A stretch of 32,000 nt of DNA from Candidatus Saccharimonadota bacterium (GTDB lineage: Bacteria > Patescibacteriota > Gracilibacteria > UBA1369 > 2-02-FULL-48-14), in the NCBI GenBank assembly GCA_965230905.1, contig OZ246396.1:570001-602000 (forward strand). The letters are read 5' to 3'. Of this stretch, positions 4,074 through 32,000 are shown piece after piece. Numbering within the stretch: the stretch's first letter is position 1; each line of letters starts with the position of its first letter. The notes beneath the pieces are model-generated. The model worked only from the letters and a program-made list of their open reading frames with translations, did not search any database and was not told where the DNA came from. The translations under genes and the position numbers were made by a program.

Positions 4074-4086
4074 CACTTTGTGTCCG

Positions 4087-5444: not shown

Positions 5445-5957
5445 ATGATTGGAATTTTAGCGATTCAAGGAGGCTACATTGAGCACGAGCGGGTTCTGGA
5501 CCAGCTGGGGCTTTTGCATAAACGAGTGCGCTCGCTCGCGGACACGGAAGGTCTCACGGGTTTTATTGTTCCAGGAGGGGAGAGCACCGTGATGGATTTG
5601 TTTATGGAAAAATATGGCTTGGATGCATGGCTGAAAAGTCGGCCGGCGGATTTCCCGATTTATGGGACCTGTGCGGGGATGATTTTGCTGGCGCGGTATG
5701 GTTTGCTTCCGCTGAAAGTGGAACGCAACGCGTATGGGCGGCAGAGCGCGAGTTTCACGGCTACTTTGAAGATGGGCGGCGGCGTGGTGAAAGGACATTT
5801 CATTCGGGCGCCTAAAGTGACGGACAGTGGCGACTGCGAAGTTTTGGCCACGCACGAAGGCACGCCGGTTTTACTGCGGCGGGGGCGCATTTGGGCCAGC
5901 AGCTTTCATCCTGAGCTGGCGAGGGAAACTGCGCTTCACCGGGCTATTTTTTCGTGA
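5445..5957 (+). CDS. pdxT: Pyridoxal 5'-phosphate synthase, glutaminase subunit PdxT
   Basis: IGILAIQGG...VPGGESTVM...YGTCAGMILLA (catalytic Cys)...NAYGRQSASF...FIRAP...SSFHPEL (His/Glu) fits the class I amidotransferase PdxT pattern. 170 aa, slightly short. Confidence 0.93.
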   Translation: MIGILAIQGGYIEHERVLDQLGLLHKRVRSLADTEGLTGFIVPGGESTVMDLFMEKYGLDAWLKSRPADFPIYGTCAGMILLARYGLLPLKVERNAYGRQSASFTATLKMGGGVVKGHFIRAPKVTDSGDCEVLATHEGTPVLLRRGRIWASSFHPELARETALHRAIFS

Positions 5958-12329: not shown

Positions 12330-12433
12330 TGTTTAATTCTACAAGAATTGAGGGTGGTTTTCCATAAGAGCCAGCGGGATTTTTCCATTTGACTTGCGGC
12401 GTTAATTGTCTTCCTTTATGCTAAGCTCCCCAC

Positions 12434-13894: not shown

Positions 13895-13938
13895 GGGCGT
13901 CGCTTGACACTGAACAGGGCAAATTCTATGGTGGACTT

Positions 13939-14949
13939 ATGAATATTCAAAGAAGCTTTGTTTTAGTTGGGATCTTGTTGCTACTGGCGGGATGTGGCGA
14001 AACGGCTCCCGAGGAAACGGCGGAACCTGTGGTGACTGAAGTCGAAGCACTGCCCATTTACATCAGCACAATGACTCACATGGAGGGCATTTTTAAGGAT
14101 GACCAAGTTGAGAATGTTTTTCTAAAACACGTGGAAGATTTGCGCTGGGCCATGGATCTTTTTGACGAATACGGCGCCAAGCTCACCATTGAAAGTGAAC
14201 AGTCTTTTGCGAAGGCCAATACTAAATGGGATCTGAATTTTTTGGCGGAAGTGGTGGAGCGTGGTCATGGCGTTGGCACCCACATGGACGCAGGTTTCAA
14301 TGAAACAAGTCTCAGCGCACTCACGGCGGATTTTAAAGAAAATAAAAAGTTGATTGATGACTTGGTGGGTGCTGAAAACAATCGTGGAATGAGCGGAGGG
14401 TCCAGTGGGGTGGATTGGGTGACGGCCGCCAGGGAAGCGGGGTTTGAATTTATGGATGCGGTGACGGCCCTTGGATATTTATCTATGGATGAGTCGTTGC
14501 GGCCGGAAGGATGGACGGACGCGTATATTAAAAAAATCGTTTACCACGATCCGATTCCGGTGGATTTTGAAGAACGTATTTACCCCCGTGTGTTTGAGGA
14601 TGCGCAGGATTTGGAGAGTGATGAAGAAGGCTTGGTGGTTTTATTTGGAGACGTCGGTGAGTTCTCCAGCTTGGCGGAAGGGCGAAAAACCTGCGGCACG
14701 CAATGTACTTTTGACAGCGATGATGCGAAGGCATTTTTGGCGGCGATTGACGAGGCGGAGGCCGTGCGTGACCCGAGTAAATTTGCTCGACTCAACATGC
14801 ACATCCCTGCAGCTTTATTGGTAAAAGAGAATGAAGCTTTGCTCCGCGAACTCTTGGCTGGCATTCAAGAATACACCGATGCCGGCATAGCTAAATGGGC
14901 GACCCAAGTGGAGGCCTATGAGGCTTTTATGGTACACTTTGACCAATGA
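13939..14949 (+). CDS. Lipoprotein (336 aa), unknown function; weak polysaccharide-deacetylase-like His motif
   Basis: The track ORF starts at 13708 inside the GH6 gene. The internal ATG at 13939 gives MNIQRSFVLVGILLLLAGCGE (lipobox). RGHGVGTHMD loosely resembles a CE4-type GH-x-G-x-H motif, but the first CE4 motif is absent. Confidence 0.7.
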   Translation: MNIQRSFVLVGILLLLAGCGETAPEETAEPVVTEVEALPIYISTMTHMEGIFKDDQVENVFLKHVEDLRWAMDLFDEYGAKLTIESEQSFAKANTKWDLNFLAEVVERGHGVGTHMDAGFNETSLSALTADFKENKKLIDDLVGAENNRGMSGGSSGVDWVTAAREAGFEFMDAVTALGYLSMDESLRPEGWTDAYIKKIVYHDPIPVDFEERIYPRVFEDAQDLESDEEGLVVLFGDVGEFSSLAEGRKTCGTQCTFDSDDAKAFLAAIDEAEAVRDPSKFARLNMHIPAALLVKENEALLRELLAGIQEYTDAGIAKWATQVEAYEAFMVHFDQ

Positions 14950-15596
14950 AAAAACTTTTCTTTTGTTCTGTATTGGCTTTTCTACAGCTAGCAGGGTGCA
15001 GCTTCACTGCTTCGCCCTTGCCGGATGAATTTTGGGCTTATGGGACTTGGCGCTACGACGGGGATGAGACTCATTTGACCGTGGCTCCAAAGGGCACGGC
15101 TCTGATAACCATGCATTTCACGCGTCAGCAGGGTGAACAGTATTTGATCGATGGAACGGTTACGTATGATGCTGAGTCGCTCTCATGCGATGTATTTTAT
15201 CTTTCAGAGGATCTGCCAATATGTGATGAAACCTGTGCGCTCGCTGAAACTATTCCCGGAGAATTAACTGGTGTGGCAGTGGTTCGTGACGATACATTGG
15301 TGATCAGTCCAAATTGGGTCACTAAACCTGATGAACACTATACGTGGACGTGCAGAGATGTGCCCGGTGGTTCGACCACTCAGAGCACATGGGCTGTTTG
15401 GCAGACTATGGGCCCGCTGGGCGCTGGGATTGTGGAAGCCACCTGGGAACTGGACATTGCTGGCGCAGCTTTTATTGACGATCTTCCCGTGAATGAAATC
15501 ACGGATGTAAAAACGATGTCGGTTAATTTTGACGTTGAAGCGAATTTTGTTGCAGCGGAGGGCTTGATTGGTTTTTATCGGGCTTTGCCTGAGTAG
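14946..15596 (+). CDS. Lipoprotein (216 aa), unknown function
   Basis: MKKLFFCSVLAFLQLAGCSF has a lipobox. ATGA overlap with the upstream gene implies translational coupling. Confidence 0.7.
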   Translation: MKKLFFCSVLAFLQLAGCSFTASPLPDEFWAYGTWRYDGDETHLTVAPKGTALITMHFTRQQGEQYLIDGTVTYDAESLSCDVFYLSEDLPICDETCALAETIPGELTGVAVVRDDTLVISPNWVTKPDEHYTWTCRDVPGGSTTQSTWAVWQTMGPLGAGIVEATWELDIAGAAFIDDLPVNEITDVKTMSVNFDVEANFVAAEGLIGFYRALPE

Positions 15597-15630
15597 TTGG
15601 TGGACAGGTCAGATGAATCGAGTACAATGA

Positions 15631-17361
15631 ATGGACAAAACCAATAACCTTTTTCTTATGAACACTTTATCTCGGATAACGGTCTCGCTTTTGGTGCTTG
15701 CTGGTTTGGCTGGCAGTGCTGTGGCGGCTACGACCATTCTTGGTTGGCCAACTACTTCGACCGTGGAAATTGGCTCCGGCGCACGTGCGCTTTATTCTGC
15801 CCTTGAACCCAGCGGGCTTGTTTGGCACAGCGGACGAAATCAGCTCATGCTAGTTGGAGACGAAGGGCAAGTGATTGCTATGGATGACGATGGAAGCAAC
15901 GCAAGCTTGTGGACGGTTTCCGGCGATTTAGAAGACATCACCGTGGTGGATCCGACTTCCAACTACGTTTATTTGGCGGATGAAGATGGTTCGATCAAAA
16001 AATACAATCTATCCACTCGCGCTGTTACGCAGACCTGGAGTGTGACCACGTGGATGCCGGAGCTAACATGTCCAAGTGGAAGTGGAACCTGTGGAATGGA
16101 GGCGCTCACCTATGCGGATGGTTATTTTTACGCGGGTTACCAGTACAACGGGAAAATTTTCAAACTGGATTTGAGTGGCACCACCGCCGTTAAAAAAGCT
16201 GAGTACACGGGATATTCCGCTAGCAGCACTGACATTTCTGGCCTGACTTATAAAGATGGCTACTTGTACGCCCTTTACAGCGACACTTTGGTGATTATGG
16301 ATTTGAGTGGAAATATTAAGACGGCTTACAATGTTCCCAACAGCGACCAGGAGGGAGTGGCGATTGGCGAAGACAGCAATGACGATGGAGATGCTAATAT
16401 CTTTATTGGAGAAGATGGGTCAAAAAAAATTTACAGCTACGACAATTTCCCCATTTATGGATGGACGGCGCCAGTGGTAGTTACCGATCCTGATACCGAT
16501 GGCGATGGAGTAGTGGATTCCTTGGATTGCAGCGACAGCGATGCCAGTGTGCACACGATGGCTACTTTCTATACCGATGCGGACAGCGACGGTCTGGGAT
16601 CTGATGCTGCGGCTTCTTTCTGCGCGGTGAGTGCACCAGCTGGGTATTCTAGCAATTCCAACGACAGCAATGATTCCATTCCCAATGCGGGTGTGGAGAT
16701 TTCCGAAGACGGCGTGGACAACGATGGAGATGGAAAAACGGATGAGGCTAATTTAGGAAGCGAGGGGCTCCACCCTTATTACGGAGCTTTGAACGCCAAT
16801 GTGAATTCAGTCGGAAAAATAACTGGATTCTGGGGGCTTCAGTATGGACAAGTTGGCGTACGCTATGCAGATGGATCGGTGTATCGCTACCGACCTTTTA
16901 GTGTATCGACTCGCACGGTAGCCACTGTGAAGGCCATTTATGGAACCGCGTACTTCACCGTTACTTTGAACGGCAGCACGGTGTACATGAATGGGTACAC
17001 GGGAGCGGTGGGTTCTTATACGCCAAACACCCGTACGGAAATTTATAATGACGGAGTGGATAATGACTTGGATGGACTCGTGGATGAGCACAGCACCACT
17101 CTTTCTAACGGCCTTCACCCCAACTACGGTGTTTTAGATCCTGCGACTTCCGCTAAGAATAAAATCGTCGGATTCTGGGGTCTTAAGAACGGGGCAATTG
17201 GAGTGCGTTATGCCGATGGATCGGTGTACCGCTACGAAGCTTTTGATGTTCAAAGCGAAACCTTTAGCACCGTGACTCAAGTTCCTGGCACGGCTTACCT
17301 CACGGTTACTTTGAACGGTAGCTCGGTGACTATAAATGGTTACAATGGAACGGTTCGTTAA
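15631..17361 (+). CDS. Secreted protein: beta-propeller-like N-domain, Asp-rich metal-binding-type linker, duplicated C-terminal module
   Basis: 576 aa with signal peptide ...LAGLAGSAVA|A. The N-terminal half has the SdiA-regulated/YjiK-like propeller flavour (SGLTYKDGYLYALYSD...DQEGVAIGED). The middle has DTDGDGVVDSLDCSDSD...YTDADSDGLG motifs. The C-terminus is a tandem duplication. Confidence 0.7.
   Translation: MDKTNNLFLMNTLSRITVSLLVLAGLAGSAVAATTILGWPTTSTVEIGSGARALYSALEPSGLVWHSGRNQLMLVGDEGQVIAMDDDGSNASLWTVSGDLEDITVVDPTSNYVYLADEDGSIKKYNLSTRAVTQTWSVTTWMPELTCPSGSGTCGMEALTYADGYFYAGYQYNGKIFKLDLSGTTAVKKAEYTGYSASSTDISGLTYKDGYLYALYSDTLVIMDLSGNIKTAYNVPNSDQEGVAIGEDSNDDGDANIFIGEDGSKKIYSYDNFPIYGWTAPVVVTDPDTDGDGVVDSLDCSDSDASVHTMATFYTDADSDGLGSDAAASFCAVSAPAGYSSNSNDSNDSIPNAGVEISEDGVDNDGDGKTDEANLGSEGLHPYYGALNANVNSVGKITGFWGLQYGQVGVRYADGSVYRYRPFSVSTRTVATVKAIYGTAYFTVTLNGSTVYMNGYTGAVGSYTPNTRTEIYNDGVDNDLDGLVDEHSTTLSNGLHPNYGVLDPATSAKNKIVGFWGLKNGAIGVRYADGSVYRYEAFDVQSETFSTVTQVPGTAYLTVTLNGSSVTINGYNGTVR
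16699..17358 (+). repeat. Intragenic tandem duplication (about 114 aa + 106 aa) in the 576-aa protein
   Basis: Repeat 1 (16699..17040): ISEDGVDNDGDGKTDE...GLHPYYGALN...GFWGLQYGQVGVRYADGSVYRYRPF...GTAYFTVTLNGSTVYMNGYTG. Repeat 2 (17041..17358): IYNDGVDNDLDGLVDE...GLHPNYGVLD...GFWGLKNGAIGVRYADGSVYRYEAF...GTAYLTVTLNGSSVTINGYNG. Confidence 0.85.
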
Positions 17362-21984: not shown

Positions 21985-23250
21985 ATGCATCGAAAAACAA
22001 CTCTTTCCAATGGCATGCGTGTCATTACGGATCGTATTCAAGGCACCCAAGCGGTGACCGCACTTGTGCTGGTTAAAGCCGGTTCACGTTACGAGCACAA
22101 ACAGATCAACGGGATCTCTCACTTTTTGGAACACATGTTCTTTAAAGGAGCGAATCGCTACAAAAATGCGAAGGCCGTTTCTGAGGCCATCGACAGTGTG
22201 GGCGGCGAATTCAATGCCTTCACTTCTAAAGAATACGCGGGTTACTACGTTAAGACGGCGGCGCAAAATATGCGACTCGCCATGGACGTGCTCTCGGACA
22301 TGATGCTGAACGCGCGCTTCGACCAAGAGGAAATTGAAAAGGAACGCGGTGTGATTATGGAAGAATTCAACATGTATCAAGACACGCCGATGTACCAAGT
22401 GGCCTGGAATTTTGAACGCGGGATGTTCGGGGATCAGCCGATTGGGTGGGACGAGGTGGGGACGAAGGATGTGATCAAGGCACTGCAACGCGATGATTTT
22501 GTTGCTTACAAGGAATCTTTGTACGTGCCGGAGGCTATGGTGATTTCGCTCGCAGGAGCGGTGGATCACGACGAAGTGGTGGCTATGGTGCAGGAACTTT
22601 TCCCCATGGAAGCGCGCAAGGCGACTGGCAAATTCCTTCCTTTCGAAGCAGGGTTGCCGACTCGTCAACGAGTTTCTTTTCAAACCAAAAAAACAGAACA
22701 AGCGCACGTGGTGTGTGGAGTGCCCGGTTACCCAGAAGAACATCCTGATCACTACGTTCTCAAGGTTCTTTCCTCTATTTTAGGAGGCAATATGAGCAGC
22801 CGTATGTTCTTGGCGGTGCGTGAAGAAAAAGGCCTCGCGTACTACATTTCTTCTGGAACGGAAGATTATTTGGATACCGGAACTTTCTACACTCGCGCCG
22901 GGGTGGACGTGACTCGAATCAAAGACGCGATTAAGGCGATTGTGGAAGAATACAAAAAGATCGCTGGGGAAGTGGTGCCGGAGAGCGAACTCAAAAAAGC
23001 CAAGGAATTTTTGAAAGGAAAACTCGTACTTTCTTTGGAAGATAGCGAAAGCGTGGCGCAAATGCACGCCCTCAATGAACTCCTTTACGACAAGATCAAA
23101 ACGCTCGCCGACATTTCTGCCAATATCGATAAAGTGACGGCAGCCGATGTGCAGCGTGTGGCCGAAAATATTCTCAAAGAAGACCTCATTCAACTCGCCG
23201 TGATTGGTCCTTACGAGGACAAGGCGGAGTTTGAAGCTTTACTCAACTAA
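21985..23250 (+). CDS. M16 family (pitrilysin/insulinase-type) zinc peptidase
   Basis: 421 aa. Inverted zinc motif HxxEH in GISHFLEHMFFKG, with the downstream EY/E region (FTSKEYAGYY) and the two-domain M16 length. Confidence 0.9.
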   Translation: MHRKTTLSNGMRVITDRIQGTQAVTALVLVKAGSRYEHKQINGISHFLEHMFFKGANRYKNAKAVSEAIDSVGGEFNAFTSKEYAGYYVKTAAQNMRLAMDVLSDMMLNARFDQEEIEKERGVIMEEFNMYQDTPMYQVAWNFERGMFGDQPIGWDEVGTKDVIKALQRDDFVAYKESLYVPEAMVISLAGAVDHDEVVAMVQELFPMEARKATGKFLPFEAGLPTRQRVSFQTKKTEQAHVVCGVPGYPEEHPDHYVLKVLSSILGGNMSSRMFLAVREEKGLAYYISSGTEDYLDTGTFYTRAGVDVTRIKDAIKAIVEEYKKIAGEVVPESELKKAKEFLKGKLVLSLEDSESVAQMHALNELLYDKIKTLADISANIDKVTAADVQRVAENILKEDLIQLAVIGPYEDKAEFEALLN

Positions 23251-23267: not shown

Positions 23268-23732
23268 ATGATGGAACGCACCCTAGTACTCATCAAACCA
23301 GACGGAATCCAACGTGGACTCGCTGGAAAAATCATCACTCGATTCGAAGAAAAAGGACTTAAAATGATTGGATGCAAAATGATGGCGCTGGATGAAGCGG
23401 TTCTCCGCGAACACTACGCGCACATTGCCGACAAGCCGTTTTTCCCTGGTGTGGCTAAGTTCATGAGCAGTTCACCGGTGCTCGCTATGTGTTGGGAAGG
23501 GGTTGAATGTGTCGAGGCCGTCCGTCTGATCACGGGGGTTACCAAGGCTCGCCAAGCGGACGCCGGAACCATTCGTGGAGACTTTGCTATGAGCGTGTCT
23601 TGCAACGTGATTCACACCTCCGATTCAGTGGAAACCGCTGAAAAAGAAGTGCCTCGTTTCTTCAACCCAGACGATTTATACGACTACAACAAAGGTGAAT
23701 ACGAACACGTCTACAACGACGAGGAACGTTAA
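23268..23732 (+). CDS. ndk: Nucleoside diphosphate kinase
   Basis: ERTLVLIKPDGIQRGLAGKIITRFEEKGLKMIGCKMM...YAHIADKPFFPG...GTIRGDFA...NVIHTSDS (active-site His) is a canonical Ndk. Confidence 0.95.
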   Translation: MMERTLVLIKPDGIQRGLAGKIITRFEEKGLKMIGCKMMALDEAVLREHYAHIADKPFFPGVAKFMSSSPVLAMCWEGVECVEAVRLITGVTKARQADAGTIRGDFAMSVSCNVIHTSDSVETAEKEVPRFFNPDDLYDYNKGEYEHVYNDEER

Positions 23733-23744
23733 AGCTTAAAAGCT

Positions 23745-24503
23745 ATGACGGTTTTCATGGGAGTTCTCAATGTGACGCCGAATAGTTTCTCTGATGGAGG
23801 GCGTTTTAAGGAGCACGGCGGTGCGGATGATGTGGTGAAGGTTGCTTTGGAAATGCTGGCGGACGGCGCGGAGATTTTAGATATTGGGGGGGAGTCCACA
23901 GGGCCGGGGAGCACGGACGTTACGGTGGAAGAAGAGTTGGCGCGGGTGATCCCGGTGATTCAGCGGATTCGGGCGGCGGCGCCGGATGCTATTCTTTCTA
24001 TAGATACCTGGAAAAGTGAGGTGGCGGAGGCGGCTTTGCGCGCGGGTGCGAACTGGGTGAATGATGTGACGGCGGGCCGGGGCGATGAGCGGATTTTTGA
24101 GGTGGCGGCGAAGGCGGGTGCGCCCATGGTTCTGATGTATTCTAAGCAAAATAGCCCGCGCACGGACCGTGAAATGGTGCAGTACGACGATGTGATGAAA
24201 ACCGTGAAGGATTTTTTACGCGAGCGGGTGGCGCTGGCGCTGGCGGCAGGAGTGAAAGAGATTATTGTGGACCCGGGGATGGGAGCTTTTGTGAGCGGGG
24301 AGCCGGCCTATAGCTTTGAGATTTTGGAGCGCATTGAAGAGTTGCGCGAGTTGGGTTGTCCGATTCTGGTTGGAACCTCACGGAAGGGCTTTTTAGGGGA
24401 CGACCGTTTGGGCATGACGCTGCTCACGACTTTGCAGCTGGCTGGACGCGTGGATTATTTGCGTGTGCACGATGTGACGGAGAATGCTACGGCTACTGAC
24501 TAA
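23745..24503 (+). CDS. folP: Dihydropteroate synthase
   Basis: VFMGVLNVTPNSFSDGGRF...ILDIGGESTGPG...ILSIDT...WVNDV...VVLMY...IIVDPGMGAF...ILVGTSRKGF...YLRVHDV is a canonical pterin-binding DHPS. Confidence 0.93.
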   Translation: MTVFMGVLNVTPNSFSDGGRFKEHGGADDVVKVALEMLADGAEILDIGGESTGPGSTDVTVEEELARVIPVIQRIRAAAPDAILSIDTWKSEVAEAALRAGANWVNDVTAGRGDERIFEVAAKAGAPMVLMYSKQNSPRTDREMVQYDDVMKTVKDFLRERVALALAAGVKEIIVDPGMGAFVSGEPAYSFEILERIEELRELGCPILVGTSRKGFLGDDRLGMTLLTTLQLAGRVDYLRVHDVTENATATD

Positions 24504-25045
24504 GATTTTAGATAATCTTTTTCAAGCAGTAAAAACTTTTCTTCGGAAAATTGATAAATGCCAATTACAATTTGTTCCCCAGTTTTTTCTTGTTCGAGTA
24601 GTACCAACTCTTTGCAGTCGAAAAGTATTGTTGGGAAATCGTTCATGTCACACGAGGCAATATACAGGCCTGAATCCCGATAGTGCTTTGCTTCTGCCCA
24701 GATGACACTGTCCACCAGGGAGATTTTCCCTGAATGATTTTTACATTTAGAATAGTAAACTGAAGAAAGGTGACACGCTTCATCGATTAGGTTTTGTCTT
24801 TCAGGAGGAAGCTGAGTTAAATTCGTAAGTCCGTTGAGCAATTCCTCTTTTACTTTTTTGGAATTTTGACTGTTGGCTCCTCGTAGGAATTCAGCTTTGA
24901 TGTAGGCATTGATCGTTAGATTCACTTGTAGTGACTCTAGTCTGTTCAAAAAAACAGTCATACTTTTAAAGTACGACTCCTGTGACATATAAGCCAGAAC
25001 GTTTGTATCTAGTAAGAGACTTTTATTTTCTAAAAAATCGATCAT
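24500..25045 (-). CDS. PIN-domain protein (VapC-like toxin candidate) with C-terminal extension
   Basis: The internal ATG at 25045 gives MIDFLENKSLLLDTNVLAY (first acidic PIN residue). Later residues: IKAEFLRG (Glu), ISLVDSVIWAEAKHY (Asp), IASCDMNDFP (Asp). 181 aa, about 33-37% GC by hand count. The track ORF extends to 25147. Confidence 0.72.
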   Translation of the reverse strand: MIDFLENKSLLLDTNVLAYMSQESYFKSMTVFLNRLESLQVNLTINAYIKAEFLRGANSQNSKKVKEELLNGLTNLTQLPPERQNLIDEACHLSSVYYSKCKNHSGKISLVDSVIWAEAKHYRDSGLYIASCDMNDFPTILFDCKELVLLEQEKTGEQIVIGIYQFSEEKFLLLEKDYLKS

Positions 25046-25178
25046 AGTAAGGTTCTTCTGCCATCTGTTTACTGGCTTTTTTAACGACGCTCTCCATAAG
25101 CTTTGCATCCCAAACCACGCCTTTTTTTTGTCTAAAAAAGTTTTCACTGCGTTCTGCTAGCTTGTCTTTTGTCTGCAT
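25023..25178 (-). CDS. Candidate 51-aa antitoxin-position ORF upstream of the PIN gene
   Basis: Reverse-strand ATG at 25178 gives MQTKDKLAERSENFFRQKKGVVWDAKLMESVVKKASKQMAEEPYYDRFFRK*. It overlaps the PIN start by 23 nt in another frame. No recognisable antitoxin fold motif, and it is below the ORF-track cut-off. Confidence 0.3.
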   Translation of the reverse strand: MQTKDKLAERSENFFRQKKGVVWDAKLMESVVKKASKQMAEEPYYDRFFRK

Positions 25179-25288: not shown

Positions 25289-25636
25289 ATGTTCGTTTCC
25301 AAAGACTTCACTTTCGACTCGGCGCACTTCCTGACTAAATATCATGGCAAGTGTGAAAACCTGCACGGGCATACTTATAAGTTGCGTGTGACGGTGGAAG
25401 GGCCGGTGGGCGAGGATGGGATGGTCATCGATTTTAAAGAGCTCAAAGCGCTCGTGAAGGACAAGGTTATTGATCGCTATGATCACCAAAACTTGAACGA
25501 CTTTTTTGAAAATCCCTCTGCAGAACTCGTGGTGATGAAGATTTGGGAAGATTTGGCGCTCGAGCTGCCGGTGAAACTTTATGAGATCACCCTGTGGGAA
25601 ACGGCGGAGAGTTTTGTTACTTACCGCGGCAACTGA
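25289..25636 (+). CDS. 6-pyruvoyl-tetrahydropterin synthase family protein (COG0720; QueD/PTPS-III type)
   Basis: 115 aa. FTFDSAHFLTKYHGKCENLHGHTYKLRVTVEG...VIDFKELK...DHQNLN is the PTPS/QueD fold with Zn-binding His residues. The active-site motif reads C-E-N-L-H-G-H. It sits between folP and folK. Confidence 0.9.
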   Translation: MFVSKDFTFDSAHFLTKYHGKCENLHGHTYKLRVTVEGPVGEDGMVIDFKELKALVKDKVIDRYDHQNLNDFFENPSAELVVMKIWEDLALELPVKLYEITLWETAESFVTYRGN

Positions 25637-26130
25637 TGCACATATTCTTAGGACTTGGAACCAACTTGGGCGACCGTGAAATGAATCTGGTTACGGCCAG
25701 GGATCTTTTGATGAAACACGACGTTTTGGTAGTGGGGCAGAGCAGTGTACTGGAAACGGCGCCGCTGGGTGGGCTGGACCAGCCGATGTATTTGAATCAG
25801 GTGGTGGAGTGCATAACGGAGCTCAGCCCGCAGGATTTATTTGTGGCCTGCAAAACCGTGGAAAGGGAAATGGGCCGCGAGACGAGTGTGCCGATGGGGA
25901 ATGTGGCGTTTGGCAGTGGGCAGAAGACGCCGTCGAAGTGGACGAGTCGAATCATCGACATAGACATTATTTTTTACGGAGAATGGATTGTGAATGAGCC
26001 GCAGCTTACTATTCCGCATGCCCGGCTCACGGAGCGGGATTTTGTGGTCGAAGGGGTTTTGGAACTTTCCCCAGACTTTGTCCATCCGCTTTTGAAAAAG
26101 CCGTTGAAAGCCCTGCGCCCTCAGGCATAA
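25636..26130 (+). CDS. folK: 2-amino-4-hydroxy-6-hydroxymethyldihydropteridine diphosphokinase (HPPK)
   Basis: The internal ATG at 25636 overlaps the PTPS TGA by 1 nt (TGATG). MHIFLGLGTNLGDR...SSVLETAPLGGLDQPMYLNQVV...EREMGRE...RIIDIDIIFYG...LTIPHARLTERDFVVEGVLEL is the HPPK pattern. Confidence 0.9.
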   Translation: MHIFLGLGTNLGDREMNLVTARDLLMKHDVLVVGQSSVLETAPLGGLDQPMYLNQVVECITELSPQDLFVACKTVEREMGRETSVPMGNVAFGSGQKTPSKWTSRIIDIDIIFYGEWIVNEPQLTIPHARLTERDFVVEGVLELSPDFVHPLLKKPLKALRPQA

Positions 26131-26137
26131 TGCGAGT

Positions 26138-26890
26138 ATGAATCCTAGACAACGCGAACTTCGGCTCGAAGCGCTCGAGCTCATTTCAAGAATGGGTGAG
26201 GGGAGTAGTGGACGCATGCTTTCGTCTATTGATTTGATTGAGGGGCTGTATTTTGGCGAAGAAAACGGGCGGCAGATTTTTAAGCACAATCCCAAAATGC
26301 CGCAGTGGGAAGAGCGTGATTATTTTGTCCTGTCTAAGATTGAGGCCTTGCCCGGTCTGCACGCGGTTTTGCAAAAAGCCGGGTACACCCTGCCGGAGGT
26401 TTTGCCGTTTTTCCCGAACCGAAAAGTGCCCGGGGTGGAGGTGACTACGGAGGAGCACGCGTATGGAATTTGCACGGCGGTGGGCATGGCGCAGGCCATA
26501 CAAATCAGCCGCCTGAACCAGCACGTGTTTTGTTTGGTGGGCGATTATGAACTGGATCATGGGCGGGCTTGGGAAGCGATACTGACGGCGGCGGAACGCA
26601 AGCTCGACCGGCTCTGTTTGATTCTTGATGAAAACAATCCCAATGACTATTTGTGGCAAGAACGCTTTGAGTCATTTGGCTGGAAAGTCATTAAGCTGCG
26701 CGACGCACACGACCACGATGAAATTGTCTACGGCTACATGAAAGCACGGCTTACTTTGCGGAAACCAACGTGCATTTGGGCGCCCACCAAAAAGTCCGCC
26801 GGCATTCCATTCGCGGAACGAAAAGGCGAATACGACGATGTGATTTTTTCCGACATGGAAATGCAAGAAATTCGAACCCTACTCGTATGA
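26138..26890 (+). CDS. Transketolase N-terminal-subunit-like protein with degenerate catalytic motifs
   Basis: 250 aa, colinear with split-transketolase N subunits (…ERDYFVLSK…PGVEV…GMAQA…VGDYELDHGRAWEA…LILDENN…FGW…). The conserved His/Gly positions are replaced: GEGSSGRMLS for GSGHPGGSLS, SKIEALP for SKGHAAP, GDY for GDG. It starts 7 nt after folK. Confidence 0.72.
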   Translation: MNPRQRELRLEALELISRMGEGSSGRMLSSIDLIEGLYFGEENGRQIFKHNPKMPQWEERDYFVLSKIEALPGLHAVLQKAGYTLPEVLPFFPNRKVPGVEVTTEEHAYGICTAVGMAQAIQISRLNQHVFCLVGDYELDHGRAWEAILTAAERKLDRLCLILDENNPNDYLWQERFESFGWKVIKLRDAHDHDEIVYGYMKARLTLRKPTCIWAPTKKSAGIPFAERKGEYDDVIFSDMEMQEIRTLLV

Positions 26891-27234
26891 TGCTGGATAT
26901 AAAACTCACTCAGCTCGGACTCAAAATTAAGAACCTCGTGGTACTCGATCTTACATTTCCCGCAGGCAAGTTTCCTGAGTTTAAAAAAGCTTATGATCAG
27001 CGTTACATTCACTTGGCCGGCCGCAAGGAAATGGCACTCGCGTTTGCGGGTGGGCTCAGTGCGTTTGGCAAAATTGTGCTTATTTATGGAATGGATAGCG
27101 ATGAGTGTGAGGTGCCCGACAGGACGTTGAATATTAAGCTCGTGGAAGAGGGCGTGGAGGGGACGTGGGAGATTTTTGAGGAGGAACTCAAGGCCTTTGG
27201 CCCTGCCGTTCTATTGATTCCTGAGGAAGTTTGA
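26887..27234 (+). CDS. Truncated transketolase C-terminal-subunit-like protein (115 aa)
   Basis: The internal ATG at 26887 forms an ATGA overlap with the upstream gene. LGLKIKNLVVLDLTFPAGKFPEFKKAYDQRYIHLAGRKEMALAFAGGLSAFGKIVLIY parallels the Pyr-domain start of split transketolases (…VVLDADL…F…P.RF…GIAEQNM…AAGLA..GK…). The protein is about one third of the normal length. Confidence 0.6.
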   Translation: MMLDIKLTQLGLKIKNLVVLDLTFPAGKFPEFKKAYDQRYIHLAGRKEMALAFAGGLSAFGKIVLIYGMDSDECEVPDRTLNIKLVEEGVEGTWEIFEEELKAFGPAVLLIPEEV

Positions 27235-27341
27235 GCGCGAACTTTTGACTACACCGTAAATAGGGTGTTCGGTCGAGCGGAAGTAGTTCCCTTCCAGGAG
27301 CTTTTTCTGTAGAATTTTCCTGCTTTAATTAAATCCACACA

Positions 27342-30300
27342 ATGAAATTTCTGGCACGCTGCTTTACTCATATACTTTTTGCTCTAGCGCTTTCTTTGTT
27401 CAGCGCAAGCATCGCCTCTGCGGCTGTGCGCACCTGGGATGGTGGGGGTTCTACGAACAACTGGAGTGAAGACGCAAACTGGTCCGATAATACCGAACCA
27501 GGAACCGGCGACGTCGCAACATTTGATGCTACGTCCACAAAGGCTGCAACCATTGATATCACGATTAGCGTTGGAGGGGTTGATATCAATACCGGATACA
27601 GTGGAACCATCACGCAAAGTGCGGCGTTGACGGTGGGTGGATCGAACTACGACCAAGCGGACGGAATTTTTACGGGTGGGAGTGCATCAGTGACATTTAA
27701 TGGAACATTTACACTTACAGGCGGTACCTTTACGCAAACAACGGGAACGACCACATATGCCGGAAGTTTTGCGCATAATACTGGCGGTACGTTTACTCAT
27801 AATTCCGGAACGTCAAAATTTACCGTATTCAGTGGTACGATAAACATCTCAGCAGCTTCTGCGGGTACGGAAACATTTGGGACGTTTACACTCGAAATCG
27901 ACCATAATAACTGTCTTTCCGTTGCCAGCGGTGACACGATTATTATCGCAGGAGACATGACCATTGTGAATGGTAACCTTTGTACGGGCACTGTTGAAAT
28001 TAAGGGAAATATTACCTGGGGAGCTGCCTCTGACGGTGCTGGAACTGATACGAATTTGCGTATTACCGGTACGGGGGATCAGACGATTACTTCCACGAGC
28101 GGTGCGAGCTTTCGTGGAACACACACTATTGATAAGGTGAGTGGAAATGTGTATTTGGGTTCGAACTATAGCCTGACTTCCGGAGCATTTGTGTTAACCA
28201 ATGGAACGTTTTATGCGCGTAATTCTGCAAACACAAATAATTATTCATTAACAAGTATAGGGAGCTATTCCCAGTCAGGTGGTACGTTTAACGGCGGATC
28301 TTCTACAATTTCTCAAGGAGGCTATACCACGTTTACGCTCTCGGGAGGTACGTACAGCCAGTCCAGCGGAACGACAACTTATGGCGGTAGTGGGTGGACA
28401 CATACGGCTGGTGGAACGTTCACTCACAATTCTGGTACAAGTTCATTTATTAACGGAAACGGTACGTTTAACGTTGATAATACGACTGGAGAGACATTTT
28501 ATCACCTCACTCTTTCTGCTTCGGGCGACAACAACGACAATAAAACCATTACTTCTGGCGACAAGCTTATTGCTGAGGGTAACGTCACTATTGATCAGGG
28601 GAGTTTTGATACGGGAACTTTGGAAGTTCGTGGGAACCTCACGTTGGGGTCGGGGGCGGACGATTCAAGCGCTCTCTTTAAGATTAATGGAACAGGCGAT
28701 CAAACCATCACTAAAAGCGGTGGTACGTTGAGTGGAGGCGTGACCGTAGATAAGGCAAGTGGCAGCGTGTATCTTGGTGCAAACTTTTCTTTGTCGAGTG
28801 CTTTTATCCTTACGAGTGGAACGATGTATTTGCGTGATTCCGGTGCAGTGACGAACTACTCGATGACATTGACCAGTACCTACTCTCAAGGAGGTGGAAC
28901 AATGAATACCGGTTCTTCGGCATTTTCTGTATCGGGGGCGTTTTCTCAGACAAGCGGTACGTTTAACGGAGGATCTTCCACGGTTGGGCATACGGGCACA
29001 TTCTCACTTTCTGGTGGCACGTACAGTCAATCCACGGGCACAACAACCTATGGAAGCACCTTTACACATACTGCTGGAGGAACATTTACGCATAATTCCG
29101 GAACAAGTTTGTTTAGCGGTTCGTCGTCGAGCATTGACGTTGGGACAACAGAAACGTTTGGTCATTTAACGATTAGTTTGACGGGGGGCCAAACAAAAAC
29201 GGTTGCTAACAGCACCACATTGATTGTTTCTGGTACCCTCACACTCACTGATGGAAGTGTTTCGCAGACAACGATTCCGACCGCAGGAACCATTTCTGCA
29301 CAAGGGAACGTTGTGGGCGCTTCTACGTATGACGGCGGTACGGGAAAACTCATTTTCTCCGGATCTGCAACGCAGACATTCGACCTTACTGGCGCGGCAG
29401 GCGTGTATAACGGAGATATTGCGGTGAATAAAGCGGGTGGTGCGGTTAACTTGCTTACTGCCCTAACCATGGATGCGAGCGGTCAAGATTTGGTTATTGA
29501 AGAAGGTACGTTTGATGTTTCTGGGTTTACGCTTTCGGTAACTGGCGCAGGAACGGAGACGATCATTGTGGAAACGGGAGGAAATCTCCAATTACAGGGC
29601 GGCGAAACCATTACGGGCGATAGCGCGAGCTACCCACAGTTAAATTCTGGATCAACGGTCACCTATGACGGTACATCTACCCCATACACACTCAAGGACT
29701 ACACCTACCATCACCTCACCATTGCGGGTGGAGCATCATCAGTATTTACGCTTGCCGCGAATGAATCACTTGGTGGAAACCTCACGTTAACCACGGGCAT
29801 TCTCTCGCAAGGTGGTTTCACGCTTGCGGTTACGGGAACGTTCAGCAATGACTCAACACTTCGTCGGTTCCAAAATGAAACGCTCACGGTAACCATGGAC
29901 ATCAACTCGGGTACCATTGAGTATGTGGGTGATGGAGATGGCAGCGCCGAAACGGTAACTCTTGCGGATCTAGGAACAACCGATTACTACAATCTCAAAA
30001 TTAATGACACCAATGTTACAAAAGATATTTTCGCGCTTGGAGCTGCGACGGTGATTGCGGGAACCTTGCAAGTCACCAGCTCAGAATTCCAGCAAGGTTT
30101 ATACGACCTAACAGCAGTGACGCTTCTTGTTGACGGCGGTACGCTTACCGGGAGTTCTTCCAGCTCATTCGTAATAACGGTATCGGGCAATGCGACGATT
30201 TCCTCAGGAACGGCCAATATCGGGGCTGCGGCAATAGATGTTTTTGGAACGCTCACCATTTCGGGCGGTACATATAACGGGAATACGTCTTGGGGACAAA

Positions 30301-32000
30301 TCATCAACCTTGCGCTTTCTTCGGGTGCCTACAATGGGAATACCTCAACGCCGACTCTTATTTTCGTCACGATTTCGGGCGGTACGTTCACGGCATCGTC
30401 TGCTACCACCACTGTGGGTGGAGACTGGACGCACACGGCTGGTGGAACGTTTGTTCATAACTCAGGAACGGTGGCCTTTACGGGAGGGGGCGCAAACATC
30501 AACGTTACAGAAACGGAAACCTTCTCGGGACTCACCATCAGTAAAGATGATAATACTCTAACGATCGCTTCTGGTGACACGCTGGTAGCAGAGGGAACAC
30601 TCACGTTGAGTAATGGCTATTGGCAAACGGGAACACTCGTTGCACAAGGAAACATTGTGGTGGGTGCTAGCTGGGATGCTGCAGGAGCTAGCACATTAAA
30701 CGTGACCGGAAGCGCGACACAAACACTTGACCTTTCCGCAGGTGCAGGACTGCTCGATAATCCTGTTACAGTGAACAAGGCTGGCGGAAGTCTTACTCTT
30801 GCCTCTGCCTACACGCTCGACCATGCGAATGCAGACTTTACGCTCACGCTCGGCACTTTCTCCACGGGCAACTTTACGATGACCACATCATCAGGATCAG
30901 ATATCGCGGTGAATGGCGGTACGTTCAACGCAGGTTCTTCCACCATGACTCTTGCAGGATTGATGACGGTTGCTGGCGGTACCTACAACGGTAACACCTC
31001 TTCCGGGACTACTTCTGGCGCCTTCCTTCTTTCGTCAGGTGCCTACAACGGCAACACTTCAACCCCAACATTCTCGGGAGGTCTCACTATTTCTGGTGGA
31101 GTGTTTACTGCAAGTTCAGGAACCATGACCGTGTCTGCGAATTTTGCTCACACGGCAGGAACCTTCACTCATAACTCAGGAACGGTTGCGTTCAACAACT
31201 CCGGAGTCACTTCTACTATTTCCGGGGACAGCACTTTCTATAATTTCACTTCCACTACGGCAAACAAACCCATCACCTTCACAGCAGGAACCACGCAAAC
31301 CGTTTCTGGATTACTCACGCTCACGGGAACTTCTGGCAATTTGATTGTTCTCCGCAGCACCGTTACGGACAGTGTTTGGAATTTGAATGTTTCCGGGACC
31401 AGTTCAGTGGATTATGTGAACGTTCGTGACTCCAATGCAGCCGGGGGAAATGCAATCACCCATGCGGTCGCCGCATCCAGGTCTGTTAACGTAGCGAACA
31501 ATACTAATTGGAGCTTCAATGCGGCGCCTACGGTGGCCACGGTTACGGCTGTACAAAGCAGCGCTGGAGATGGAGACATTACGATTACTTTCATCATGGA
31601 CGACCCAGACGATGACAACACTCTTCAGGGGAAAGTGGAATACAGTTTGAACGGAGGAAGCAGCTGGGCAGACCCTACTATCAGCACGACTGGCAGTGAA
31701 ACGTCTGCCACTTTTGGCGACCCTTCGGTGAGCAATGCAGCGACCTACCAAGTGGGACAAAGCGGTGCGTATATTTTAAGCTCCAGCGGCGCTAACACGG
31801 TTACTATTGTGTGGGAGTCTGCAACGGACATCGCCAGCTCTACTGATATTTCTAATGCTCGTATTCGTATTACGCCTTACGATGGCGTTGCGGAAGGCAC
31901 CGCCTCCAGCAGTTCCAACTTTACTTTAGATCGCGTTGGGCCAAGCGGACTTGCAAACTTTAGACATACCGATTTCTCAAATAGTCAGGTGGTTTTGTCT
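27342..32000 (+). CDS. Giant secreted Thr/Gly/Ser-rich beta-helix-type repeat protein (Pmp-like GGxF/FxxN motifs), 3'-truncated by the window edge
   Basis: Read codon by codon: ATG at 27342, then 1553 sense codons with no stop to position 32000. This is why it is missing from the ORF track. Signal peptide MKFLARCFTHILFALALSLFSASIASA|A is followed by VRTWDGGGSTNNWSEDANWSDNTEPGTGDVATFD. The motif (F/W)xHxxGGTF(T/V)HNSGT recurs five times. All track ORFs in 27368..31760 are antisense or out-of-frame shadows. Confidence 0.9.
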   Translation, partial: MKFLARCFTHILFALALSLFSASIASAAVRTWDGGGSTNNWSEDANWSDNTEPGTGDVATFDATSTKAATIDITISVGGVDINTGYSGTITQSAALTVGGSNYDQADGIFTGGSASVTFNGTFTLTGGTFTQTTGTTTYAGSFAHNTGGTFTHNSGTSKFTVFSGTINISAASAGTETFGTFTLEIDHNNCLSVASGDTIIIAGDMTIVNGNLCTGTVEIKGNITWGAASDGAGTDTNLRITGTGDQTITSTSGASFRGTHTIDKVSGNVYLGSNYSLTSGAFVLTNGTFYARNSANTNNYSLTSIGSYSQSGGTFNGGSSTISQGGYTTFTLSGGTYSQSSGTTTYGGSGWTHTAGGTFTHNSGTSSFINGNGTFNVDNTTGETFYHLTLSASGDNNDNKTITSGDKLIAEGNVTIDQGSFDTGTLEVRGNLTLGSGADDSSALFKINGTGDQTITKSGGTLSGGVTVDKASGSVYLGANFSLSSAFILTSGTMYLRDSGAVTNYSMTLTSTYSQGGGTMNTGSSAFSVSGAFSQTSGTFNGGSSTVGHTGTFSLSGGTYSQSTGTTTYGSTFTHTAGGTFTHNSGTSLFSGSSSSIDVGTTETFGHLTISLTGGQTKTVANSTTLIVSGTLTLTDGSVSQTTIPTAGTISAQGNVVGASTYDGGTGKLIFSGSATQTFDLTGAAGVYNGDIAVNKAGGAVNLLTALTMDASGQDLVIEEGTFDVSGFTLSVTGAGTETIIVETGGNLQLQGGETITGDSASYPQLNSGSTVTYDGTSTPYTLKDYTYHHLTIAGGASSVFTLAANESLGGNLTLTTGILSQGGFTLAVTGTFSNDSTLRRFQNETLTVTMDINSGTIEYVGDGDGSAETVTLADLGTTDYYNLKINDTNVTKDIFALGAATVIAGTLQVTSSEFQQGLYDLTAVTLLVDGGTLTGSSSSSFVITVSGNATISSGTANIGAAAIDVFGTLTISGGTYNGNTSWGQIINLALSSGAYNGNTSTPTLIFVTISGGTFTASSATTTVGGDWTHTAGGTFVHNSGTVAFTGGGANINVTETETFSGLTISKDDNTLTIASGDTLVAEGTLTLSNGYWQTGTLVAQGNIVVGASWDAAGASTLNVTGSATQTLDLSAGAGLLDNPVTVNKAGGSLTLASAYTLDHANADFTLTLGTFSTGNFTMTTSSGSDIAVNGGTFNAGSSTMTLAGLMTVAGGTYNGNTSSGTTSGAFLLSSGAYNGNTSTPTFSGGLTISGGVFTASSGTMTVSANFAHTAGTFTHNSGTVAFNNSGVTSTISGDSTFYNFTSTTANKPITFTAGTTQTVSGLLTLTGTSGNLIVLRSTVTDSVWNLNVSGTSSVDYVNVRDSNAAGGNAITHAVAASRSVNVANNTNWSFNAAPTVATVTAVQSSAGDGDITITFIMDDPDDDNTLQGKVEYSLNGGSSWADPTISTTGSETSATFGDPSVSNAATYQVGQSGAYILSSSGANTVTIVWESATDIASSTDISNARIRITPYDGVAEGTASSSSNFTLDRVGPSGLANFRHTDFSNSQVVLS
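27768..31184 (+). repeat. Diverged protein-level module repeats inside the giant ORF
   Basis: Anchor motif xxHxxGGTFxHNSGT at 27768..27812, 28395..28439, 29061..29105, 30426..30470 and 31143..31184, giving spacings of 209, 222, 455 and 239 aa. Secondary motifs recur in register: ETF(G/Y/S)xLT(I/L), SGD(T/K)(I/L)IAxG, (R/K)I(T/N)GTGDQTIT at 28056..28091 and 28677..28712, and DKxSGxVYLGxN(Y/F)SL. Copies differ heavily at synonymous sites. Confidence 0.85.

What the first reader, a model, noticed from the sequence alone, without database searches (positions are those of the whole stretch)
26138..27234. Degenerate, miniaturised split transketolase-like pair translationally chained to folK
**Arrangement.** Two coupled ORFs (ATGA overlap) start 7 nt after folK on the same strand. 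They are colinear with the N- and C-terminal subunits of split transketolases.

**N-like protein.** It keeps the spacing of the ThDP motif exactly: GDY-x27-DENN versus the canonical GDG-x27-DRNG, quoted from my memory of the family. The Asp and Asn metal ligands are therefore retained. It has lost the conserved His/Gly positions: GEGSSGRMLS for GSGHPGGSLS, SKIEALP for SKGHAAP, EEHAYGI for GSLGQGL.

**C-like protein.** It is only 115 aa against the usual roughly 310 aa. It retains just the beginning of the Pyr domain and a C-terminal tail, and the GIAEQN glutamate region reads AGRKEM.

**Interpretation.** Intact frames plus translational coupling argue against simple pseudogenes. This may be a pseudoenzyme or a repurposed ThDP or sugar-phosphate binder.

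**Speculative link.** The folate step bypassed here (FolB/PTPS-III) removes a two-carbon glycolaldehyde-type side chain. Transketolase chemistry is the handling of an activated glycolaldehyde unit. Co-transcription with folK could therefore be functional rather than accidental.
Basis: partly seen in the sequence, partly recalled or inferred. Interest (0 to 1): 0.7.

Follow-up and report, generated by a model that had tools for sequence, protein, structure and literature searches.

The report
Dead, miniaturised split transketolase pair
Two small neighbouring genes in a groundwater CPR (Peregrinibacteria-type) bacterium descend from the two halves of a split transketolase; they have lost everything needed for catalysis yet are strongly conserved, so they are a pseudoenzyme of unknown job, and they sit next to folK because of inherited gene order.

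Summary
ORF 26138-26890 (250 aa) is a transketolase PP-domain homologue (Pfam E=2.7e-21; split-TK 6YAK E=6.8e-31; model TM 0.89). ORF 26887-27234 (115 aa, ATGA overlap) is a cut-down Pyr domain (hhalign 96.6%, E=5e-10; Foldseek top hit 6YAJ).

All catalytic histidines, the cofactor-activating Glu, the thiazolium and pyrimidine contacts and the whole TKC domain are lost. These are still not pseudogenes:
- About 80 homologues of the N-like protein and about 27 of the small one keep their length.
- Synonymous sites are saturated, while dN equals that of the neighbouring folK, rpe and prs.
- The Mg-diphosphate anchor (K67, D136, E138, N166, K219) is 95-100% conserved.
- The replacement residues (E69, Y137, D233) are 91-98% conserved.

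The folate link is not supported. In 12/12 loci of this form the pair lies between folK and prs-rpiB-rpe. Near-intact split transketolases in relatives sit in the same slot, some directly after folK. Other relatives have no folate genes there at all.

Related genomes show a graded series from intact, to dead but full-length, to 136/145-aa, to 115-aa forms. In some, a complete single-chain transketolase and a phosphoketolase lie beside the pair.

Best reading: a conserved non-catalytic relic with a remodelled metal/diphosphate pocket. Its role is unknown. JGI and KEGG-style annotation calls it "transketolase", which overstates the pathway.

The parts
26138..26890 (+). N-like gene (250 aa): a PP-domain homologue of the split-transketolase alpha subunit, catalytically degenerate.
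   Evidence: Pfam PF00456 E=2.7e-21. NCBIfam transketolase equivalog scores 113.7 bits against a cut-off of 488, so it fails. PDB 6yak_A E=6.8e-31. AF2 pLDDT 91.1 and Foldseek TM 0.89. 81-sequence family.
26540..26638 (+). Remnant of the ThDP motif, G135-D136-Y137 ... D164-E165-N166-N167 (GDY-x26-DENN). The Asp and Asn metal ligands are kept. The loop carrying the third ligand is deleted just downstream.
   Evidence: Spacing of 26 residues and conservation D136 77/81, Y137 79/81, E138 81/81, N166 79/81. Alignment to 6YAK. Ligand list for ChTK from PMC7661550.
26887..27234 (+). Small gene (115 aa): a minimal Pyr-domain core descended from the split-transketolase beta subunit. The TKC domain is absent and there are three internal deletions.
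   Evidence: Profile against PDB: 6yaj E=3.3e-4. hhalign 96.6%, E=5.4e-10, query 3-114 against template 14-144. AF2 pLDDT 90.3. Foldseek 6yaj TM 0.73. Alignment with full-length, 145-aa and 136-aa forms.
26887..26890 (+). ATGA start/stop overlap between the two ORFs.
   Evidence: Sequence. The same -4 overlap occurs in L009 and L099. Other loci have -1, +5 to +33, +123, and +409/+418 nt.
25636..26130 (+). folK (HPPK), the upstream neighbour, 7 nt before the N-like start.
   Evidence: Pfam HPPK E=1.5e-30 and TIGR01498. folK is upstream in 12/12 loci of the 250/115 form.
25289..25636 (+). PTPS/QueD-family gene (probable PTPS-III, judged from its folP-PTPS-folK context), overlapping folK by 1 nt.
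   Evidence: Pfam PTPS E=8e-36; TIGR03367 101.8 bits.
27342..32000 (+). Start of a 1911-aa SLH-domain protein gene. It is a lineage-specific insertion that separates the pair from prs-rpiB-rpe in this genome.
   Evidence: In L006 the order is small ORF, SLH protein 11205-16940, prs, rpiB, rpe. The insertion is absent in the 93%-identical L009, L095 and L096.

Best explanation
**What it is.** The two ORFs are the orthologues of the alpha (PP domain) and beta (Pyr + TKC domains) subunits of a split transketolase. In this clade of CPR bacteria (Peregrinibacteria and relatives) that enzyme sits in a conserved cluster: ndk-(pab/folP-PTPS-folK)-tktN-tktC-prs-rpiB-rpe.

**What has been lost (shown).** In the window's lineage the pair has lost:
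- the catalytic histidines;
- the cofactor-activating glutamate;
- the residues that hold the thiazolium and aminopyrimidine rings;
- the substrate-phosphate residues;
- the whole TKC domain.

It therefore cannot work as a transketolase or as any ThDP catalyst.

**What is kept (shown).** Both proteins are under strong purifying selection and are predicted to fold as a PP domain and a minimal Pyr-domain core.

**How it most likely works (inferred).**
- They still associate in the PP:Pyr manner.
- They act non-catalytically, through a remodelled but highly conserved pocket.
- That pocket keeps the Mg2+/diphosphate anchor (Lys67, Asp136, Glu138, Asn166, Lys219).
- It replaces the diphosphate- and substrate-contacting His and Gly with conserved Glu69, Tyr137 and Asp233/Asp234.
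- The likely role is a ligand-binding, regulatory or scaffold subunit tied to pentose-phosphate/PRPP supply.
- Transketolase catalysis itself was probably taken over by another enzyme, a single-chain transketolase and/or a phosphoketolase, as seen beside the split genes in related genomes.

**The folK adjacency** is inherited gene order.
For: **Homology and fold.**

**Loss of the catalytic set.** This rests on the alignment to 6YAK/6YAJ and on the ChTK ligand list in PMC7661550:
- His70 becomes Glu69.
- Gly117 and Leu119 become variable.
- Leu180 and Ile182 are deleted.
- The WH motif becomes YD.
- Glu55C aligns with a variable Lys47.
- Phe80C is deleted.
- The TH...GEDG..H segment is deleted.
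- The TKC domain is absent.
- The NCBIfam transketolase cut-off is failed, 113.7 bits against 488.

**Purifying selection.**
- pS is 0.68-0.87 (saturated), against pN of 0.05-0.28.
- dN of the N-like gene is 0.24-0.35, against folK 0.28-0.42, rpe 0.32-0.49 and prs 0.20-0.25.
- dN of the small ORF is 0.40-0.62.
- Lengths are constant over 81 and about 27 homologues.

**The pocket is conserved above background.**
- Mean top-residue frequency is 0.78.
- K67 79/81, E69 74/81, D136 77/81, Y137 79/81, E138 81/81, N166 79/81, K219 81/81, Y232 80/81, D233 79/81.

**Orthology by position.**
- In 12/12 loci, folK is upstream and the small ORF and prs are downstream.
- The window's own genome contig has prs-rpiB-rpe after an inserted SLH gene.

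**Graded series in the same slot.**
- L106: intact.
- L010 and L115: dead but full-length.
- L105: 262+145 aa.
- L089: 279+136 aa.
- Window type: 250+115 aa.

**A replacement enzyme is seen in relatives.** An island carrying an intact single-chain TK is inserted between split tktN and tktC, with an XFP phosphoketolase adjacent (L115, L175, L177). In L115 the split pair is catalytically dead.
Against: - No experiment or complex model was possible. The PP:Pyr association and any ligand binding are inferred only.
- I could not scan the rest of the window's 1.31-Mb genome. A replacement transketolase or phosphoketolase in this organism is therefore unproven.
- If there is none, keeping rpe next to the pair is hard to explain.
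- Replacing His70 and His263 by acidic residues, and losing the third metal ligand, could abolish diphosphate binding altogether.
- D136 and N166 are changed in a few divergent members (P0079, P0082).
- The specific role (regulator, scaffold or binder) has no direct support.
Confidence: 0.6

Rival explanations
1. A folate-linked function: the pair works with FolK/PTPS-III. It might handle the two-carbon fragment released at the FolB-bypass step, or bind or channel hydroxymethyl-dihydropterin diphosphate.
For: folK lies immediately upstream in 12/12 loci of the 250/115 form, often overlapping or within 7-15 nt. The diphosphate anchor of the PP domain is conserved. FolK's product carries a diphosphate.
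Against: The same tight folK-tktN junction occurs with a near-intact transketolase (L106; also L110, L112, L175), so it predates the degeneration. Relatives with truncated or degenerate pairs lack the folate block entirely (L089, L092, L109, L111, L113). All loci come from one clade, so the conserved order may simply be inherited. The glycolaldehyde chemistry would need ThDP catalysis, which is lost.
Confidence: 0.1
2. The pair is still a working, extremely reduced transketolase or other ThDP enzyme that uses non-canonical residues.
For: There is strong purifying selection. The Asp/Asn metal motif is retained. The pair is adjacent to rpiB and rpe, which would need a transketolase partner. JGI and KEGG-style annotation call it transketolase.
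Against: There is no conserved Glu at or next to the activating position. The pi-stacking Phe and the Ile/Leu thiazolium contacts are deleted, all catalytic His are lost or deleted, and the phosphate-binding residues are absent. The score is far below the equivalog cut-offs.
Confidence: 0.05
3. Decaying pseudogenes, or translated spacers with no function of their own.
For: Massive loss of catalytic residues and domains. A graded series of truncations is seen in relatives.
Against: The frames are intact in all loci examined, and lengths are fixed at about 250 and 112-121 aa. pN is far below pS. dN is comparable to essential neighbours. Both AF2 models have pLDDT above 90.
Confidence: 0.03

Closest known systems
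Split-gene transketolase of Carboxydothermus hydrogenoformans (ChTK-N/ChTK-C; PDB 6YAK, 6YAJ; PMC7661550)
   Same: Two adjacent genes encode a PP-domain subunit and a Pyr-domain subunit. It is the best sequence and fold match for both window proteins. The GDx-x26-N spacing is identical, and Lys68, Asp148, Glu150, Asn178 and Lys240 are retained.
   Different: The window N subunit is about 30 aa shorter, through two loop deletions, and lacks His70, Gly117, Leu119, Leu180, Ile182 and the WH histidine. The window C subunit is 115 aa rather than 312 aa. It has no TKC domain, no Glu55, no Phe80 and no THxG..GEDG..H segment. ChTK is an active alpha2beta2 enzyme.
Near-intact and degenerate split transketolases of related CPR genomes (L106, L175; L010 Peregrinibacteria GW2011_GWF2_43_17; L089; L105)
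   Same: They occupy the same chromosomal slot (ndk or folK upstream, prs-rpiB-rpe downstream) and are 36-40% identical. The YH/YQ/YY/YD variants at the WH motif are shared.
   Different: L106 keeps all catalytic residues and a 306-aa C subunit. L010 is full-length but has SDF for GDG and has lost the Glu. L089 and L105 have 136- and 145-aa C subunits. The window form is the most reduced.
Mammalian transketolase-like proteins TKTL1/TKTL2 (from my own knowledge, not tested here)
   Same: They are transketolase paralogues with deletions or substitutions in the cofactor region. Their catalytic competence is disputed, and they are retained alongside an active transketolase.
   Different: They are single-chain, full three-domain eukaryotic proteins with a much milder loss. 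There is no relation by descent to the CPR pair.
E. coli transketolase lacking the TKC domain (Costelloe et al. 2008, cited in PMC7661550; the detail is from my own knowledge)
   Same: It shows that the TKC domain is dispensable for the PP:Pyr core assembly, which makes loss of TKC in the 136-, 145- and 115-aa forms structurally plausible.
   Different: That construct retains the full active site and its activity. The window pair does not retain the active site.

Membership tests
Transketolase (EC 2.2.1.1), split alpha/beta type | PP-domain fold and sequence homology of the N subunit | tested here: met
   Pfam PF00456 E=2.7e-21. 6yak_A E=6.8e-31. Foldseek TM 0.89, rmsd 2.3.
Transketolase (EC 2.2.1.1), split alpha/beta type | ThDP motif with Asp and Asn metal ligands at canonical spacing | tested here: met
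   GDY-x26-DEN has the same spacing as 6YAK. D136 is 77/81 and N166 is 79/81. However, GDG has become GDY, and the loop with the third ligand (Leu180) and Ile182 is deleted.
Transketolase (EC 2.2.1.1), split alpha/beta type | Catalytic and diphosphate-contacting histidines of the PP domain (yeast His30, His69, His103, His263) | tested here: not met
   In the window: Ser23 (His in 61/81 relatives), Glu69, the GHP loop deleted, and Asp233.
Transketolase (EC 2.2.1.1), split alpha/beta type | Cofactor-activating Glu of the Pyr domain (ChTK Glu55C; GIAEQN) | tested here: not met
   It aligns to Lys47, a variable column. The neighbouring Glu48 is not conserved either.
Transketolase (EC 2.2.1.1), split alpha/beta type | Complete Pyr domain with the pyrimidine-stacking Phe and the THxG...GEDG..H substrate/catalytic segment | tested here: not met
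   Both segments fall in internal deletions of the 115-aa protein.
Transketolase (EC 2.2.1.1), split alpha/beta type | TKC (C-terminal) domain | tested here: not met
   The protein ends at the Pyr/TKC boundary. There is no Pfam PF02780 hit.
Transketolase (EC 2.2.1.1), split alpha/beta type | Score above the curated equivalog cut-off | tested here: not met
   Best NCBIfam transketolase model scores 113.7 bits against a cut-off of 488. The small ORF has no hit.
Transketolase (EC 2.2.1.1), split alpha/beta type | Descent from tktN/tktC (positional orthology) | tested here: met
   It occupies the same slot between folK or ndk and prs-rpiB-rpe as intact split transketolases of relatives.
Pseudoenzyme (catalytically dead homologue retained by selection) | Loss of residues essential for the ancestral chemistry | tested here: met
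Pseudoenzyme (catalytically dead homologue retained by selection) | Purifying selection and conserved length | tested here: met
   pN 0.05-0.28 against saturated pS. dN is comparable to folK, rpe and prs. Family sizes and lengths are given.
Pseudoenzyme (catalytically dead homologue retained by selection) | Demonstrated absence of activity, and a demonstrated non-catalytic role | not testable with these tools
   This needs biochemistry.

The most novel reading that the evidence does not exclude
The pair is a neofunctionalised small-molecule receptor. A PP-domain/mini-Pyr heteromer would use its retained Mg-diphosphate anchor, plus the new conserved Glu69/Tyr137/Asp233-234 pocket, to bind a diphosphate-bearing metabolite. 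Candidates are the products of the flanking pyrophosphokinases, PRPP from Prs or hydroxymethyl-dihydropterin diphosphate from FolK. The pair would thereby sense, sequester or channel that metabolite. This would be a ThDP-enzyme scaffold converted to a non-ThDP ligand binder.
Probability: 0.12. Interest if true: 0.75.

Novelty: new variant of a known kind. Interest (0 to 1): 0.5.

Why it matters
**Annotation.** JGI names this protein 'transketolase' (K00615/COG3959), and NCBI names it 'DXP synthase N-terminal domain-containing protein'. Metabolic reconstructions of Peregrinibacteria-type CPR genomes that count it as transketolase would wrongly close the non-oxidative pentose-phosphate pathway. 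That includes the proposed bypass of the missing phosphofructokinase (PMC4736985).

**Evolution.** The clade offers a natural, stepwise series within one syntenic slot: intact, then dead but full-length, then TKC-less, then a 115-aa core. It also includes cases where a horizontally acquired single-chain transketolase sits between the split genes. This is a clean system for studying how an enzyme becomes a pseudoenzyme and how far a ThDP-enzyme fold can be pared down.

**Function.** A dead enzyme that is as constrained as its essential neighbours implies an unknown function in organisms with very small genomes.

Tried and rejected
1. **A second transketolase or phosphoketolase in the window's own genome** (ENA ERZ1292638 NODE_1, 1,307,106 bp). 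No tool gives whole-contig access. My last protein search, with the L115 single-chain TK, returned 8000 capped candidates, and none lay on contigs with the lengths known to carry the mini pair. This stays unresolved.

2. **Genome contigs and metagenome-contig scans.** They returned only 1 and 8 loci of the 250/115 form, the rest being ordinary split transketolases. They were still useful for building the graded series.

3. **Ca. Peribacter riflensis complete genome** (supplement of PMC4736985). It has one 763-aa single-chain transketolase next to transaldolase, no split pair and no folK. It is therefore a different lineage and does not answer the question for the window.

4. **A natural fusion of the two ORFs** (P0166, 369 aa, NCBI). 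I rejected it as probably a table-25 (UGA=Gly) annotation artefact. The residue at the join is Gly at the stop position, JGI calls two genes, and N-like genes end with TAA in 7 of 13 loci.

5. **The extra 138-aa ORF between the two genes in L001 and L101.** It is a hydrophobic membrane protein, not a missing transketolase piece.

6. **Other negative or unavailable checks.**
   - No riboswitch or other Rfam element lies near the pair.
   - Literature searches for truncated or pseudo-transketolases in CPR found nothing.
Full report
**1. What is at the coordinates**

On the + strand the window carries these genes:

| Coordinates | Gene |
|---|---|
| 21985-23250 | M16 peptidase |
| 23268-23732 | ndk |
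| 23745-24503 | folP |
| 24500-25147 (opposite strand) | PIN-like ORF |
| 25289-25636 | PTPS/QueD-family gene |
| 25636-26130 | folK |
| 26138-26890 | 250-aa ORF (N-like) |
| 26887-27234 | 115-aa ORF (small) |

- Downstream, from 27342 to the window end, is the start of a large secreted SLH-domain protein.
- The window's own genome was found in public assemblies: ENA ERZ1292638, a 1,307,106-bp contig from Hainich groundwater. There the SLH gene (1911 aa) is followed by prs, rpiB and rpe.

**2. Identity of the two proteins**

*The 250-aa protein is a transketolase PP-domain homologue.*
- Pfam Transketolase_N E=2.7e-21.
- Best solved relative is the N subunit of the C. hydrogenoformans split transketolase, 6YAK, E=6.8e-31.
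- AF2 pLDDT 91.1 and Foldseek TM 0.89 to 6yak_A.
- It fails every NCBIfam transketolase cut-off, 113.7 bits against 488.

*The 115-aa protein has no Pfam hit, yet it is a cut-down Pyr domain.*
- A family profile hits the C chain of the same split transketolase (6YAJ, E=3.3e-4), then the DXS and human TK Pyr domains.
- hhalign against 25 canonical TK-C subunits gives 96.6% probability, E=5.4e-10, over residues 3-114.
- Its AF2 model (pLDDT 90.3) has 6YAJ, DXS and E1-beta as top fold matches.
- An exhaustive profile search of 1.84 billion representatives found only 39 hits. About 27 are proteins of 110-120 aa. The rest include full-length TK-C proteins of 307-311 aa, matched at their N termini, and two 136-aa intermediates.

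**3. What is lost and what is kept**

I used the ligand list published for ChTK (PMC7661550) and the alignments.

*Lost in the N-like protein:*
- His70 becomes Glu69.
- Gly117 and Leu119 become Glu105 and His107, both variable positions.
- The GHP loop is deleted.
- Leu180 and Ile182 are deleted.
- The His of the WH motif becomes Asp233.

*Lost in the small protein:*
- Glu55C aligns with Lys47, a variable column.
- Ile53C becomes Gly45.
- Phe80C is deleted.
- The THxG..GEDG..H segment is deleted.
- The TKC domain is absent. The protein stops exactly at the Pyr/TKC boundary.

*Kept: the Mg-diphosphate anchor.* This comprises Lys67, Asp136, Glu138, Asn166 and Lys219.

*Conservation across 81 family members.* The mean top-residue frequency is 0.78. 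The kept residues and the replacement residues both stand well above it:

| Residue | Frequency |
|---|---|
| K67 | 79/81 |
| E69 | 74/81 |
| D136 | 77/81 |
| Y137 | 79/81 |
| E138 | 81/81 |
| N166 | 79/81 |
| K219 | 81/81 |
| Y232 | 80/81 |
| D233 | 79/81 |

This pattern fits a remodelled, selected pocket rather than drift. The first-motif His is present in 61/81 relatives.

**4. Not pseudogenes**

- Both ORFs keep frame and length in all homologues.
- Between deep lineages, synonymous sites are saturated (pS 0.68-0.87).
- dN of the N-like gene is 0.24-0.35. That compares with 0.28-0.42 for folK, 0.32-0.49 for rpe and 0.20-0.25 for prs.
- dN of the small ORF is 0.40-0.62.
- The stop between the two ORFs is real. 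The N-like gene ends with TAA in 7 of 13 loci.
- A 369-aa 'fusion' in an NCBI record therefore looks like a table-25 read-through artefact.

**5. Gene context**

*The 250/115 form.* In 12 of 12 loci with enough flanking sequence, folK is upstream, and the small ORF and then prs (with rpiB and rpe where sequence extends) are downstream. The N-to-small junction varies from -4 to +418 nt.

*The same slot in related CPR genomes holds other forms:*
- L106 has a split transketolase with every catalytic residue intact and a 306-aa C subunit, directly after folK.
- L010 (Peregrinibacteria GW2011_GWF2_43_17) and L115 have full-length but dead pairs.
- L105 has a 262+145-aa pair.
- L089 has a 279+136-aa pair.

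*Relatives without the folate block.* In L089, L092, L109, L111 and L113 there is no folate block, and ndk is directly upstream.

So the constant partners are ndk and prs-rpiB-rpe. The folate block is an optional insert, and the tight folK-tktN junction predates the degeneration.

*A possible replacement enzyme.* In L115, L175 and L177 an island carrying an intact, human-type single-chain transketolase is inserted between split tktN and tktC. That enzyme is 64-73% identical to Verrucomicrobia enzymes. An XFP phosphoketolase lies alongside. In L115 the split pair is catalytically dead. This shows that redundancy with a second enzyme does occur in the clade.

**6. Interpretation**

- *Shown:* orthology to tktN/tktC, loss of the ThDP catalytic apparatus, purifying selection, confident folds, and a conserved remodelled metal/diphosphate site.
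- *Inferred:* the two proteins still pair in the PP:Pyr manner; they act non-catalytically as a binder, regulator or scaffold linked to pentose-phosphate/PRPP supply; and transketolase chemistry is provided elsewhere or has been given up.
A weaker version is not excluded, namely binding a diphosphate metabolite such as the FolK or Prs product. I give it about 0.1.
- *Very unlikely:* residual ThDP catalysis, about 0.05.
- *Contradicted:* simple decay.

**7. Comparison with known systems, and novelty**

- The closest characterised system is the ChTK split transketolase.
- The window pair fails the defining catalytic features. It should not be filed as a transketolase, although it descends from one.
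- I found no description of truncated or pseudo-transketolases in CPR.
- It is a new, extreme variant of a known family.

**8. Limits**

- No whole-genome access, no multimer modelling and no biochemistry were available.
- All loci come from one clade, so conserved gene order carries little functional weight.
- The taxonomic labels, 'Ca. Peribacteria', 'Peregrinibacteria' and 'Ca. Gracilibacteria', are those of the public records.

Noticed in passing
window 27342-32000 (continues beyond the window; L006 11205-16940): A 1911-aa SLH-domain secreted protein gene is inserted between the small ORF and prs-rpiB-rpe in this genome only. In the 93%-identical relatives (L009, L095, L096), prs follows the small ORF directly.
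   Followed up: partly
L115 6424-8355; L175 8001-9875; L177 8001-9815: In related 'Ca. Gracilibacteria'-labelled genomes, an island (DUF192, DUF3800, intact human-type single-chain transketolase, HAD hydrolase) sits between the split tktN and tktC genes. An XFP phosphoketolase lies next to it. The transketolase is 64-73% identical to Verrucomicrobia enzymes, which suggests horizontal acquisition.
   Followed up: partly
protein P0166 (NCBI MFA6024109.1), relative of window 26138-27234: NCBI annotates a 369-aa protein that reads through from the N-like ORF into the small ORF, with Gly at the stop position ('HLL-G-PLF-MLLDIK'). JGI calls two genes on a contig of the same length. This is probably an artefact of translating a code-11 organism with table 25.
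   Followed up: partly
window 25289-25636: The PTPS-family gene passes the NCBIfam QueD cut-off (101.8 against 89.25 bits), but it sits in a folP-PTPS-folK arrangement and carries the KCENLHGH motif. It is probably the FolB-replacing PTPS-III and is at risk of being misnamed QueD.
   Followed up: no
window 24500-25147 (- strand): A 215-aa ORF with a weak PIN-domain match (E=0.005, below cut-off) is wedged on the opposite strand between folP and PTPS. It is present in the window's own genome copies (L006-L008) as a 181-aa call.
   Followed up: no
window 4078-4950 and 5445-5957: PdxS (SOR_SNZ, E=9e-104) and PdxT (SNO) form a PLP synthase pair, which consumes ribose 5-phosphate. This is relevant to why rpiB is kept.
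   Followed up: no
window 10992-12329 (-) and 12434-13894 (+): An SLH-domain protein and a glycoside hydrolase family 6 enzyme with three SLH repeats. These are cell-surface-anchored cellulase-like functions in a CPR genome.
   Followed up: no
window 26104-26131 and 27285-27310: A promoter-like match (TTGAAA-16-CATAAT, 10/12) lies inside the 3' end of folK, just before the N-like start. A terminator-like hairpin with a T-run lies about 50 nt after the small ORF. Both are consensus matches only.
   Followed up: no
L001 8759-9175 and L101 (between the N-like and small ORFs): A 138-aa strongly hydrophobic (membrane) ORF is inserted between the two transketolase-derived genes in two lineages. This breaks their coupling without disrupting either gene.
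   Followed up: partly
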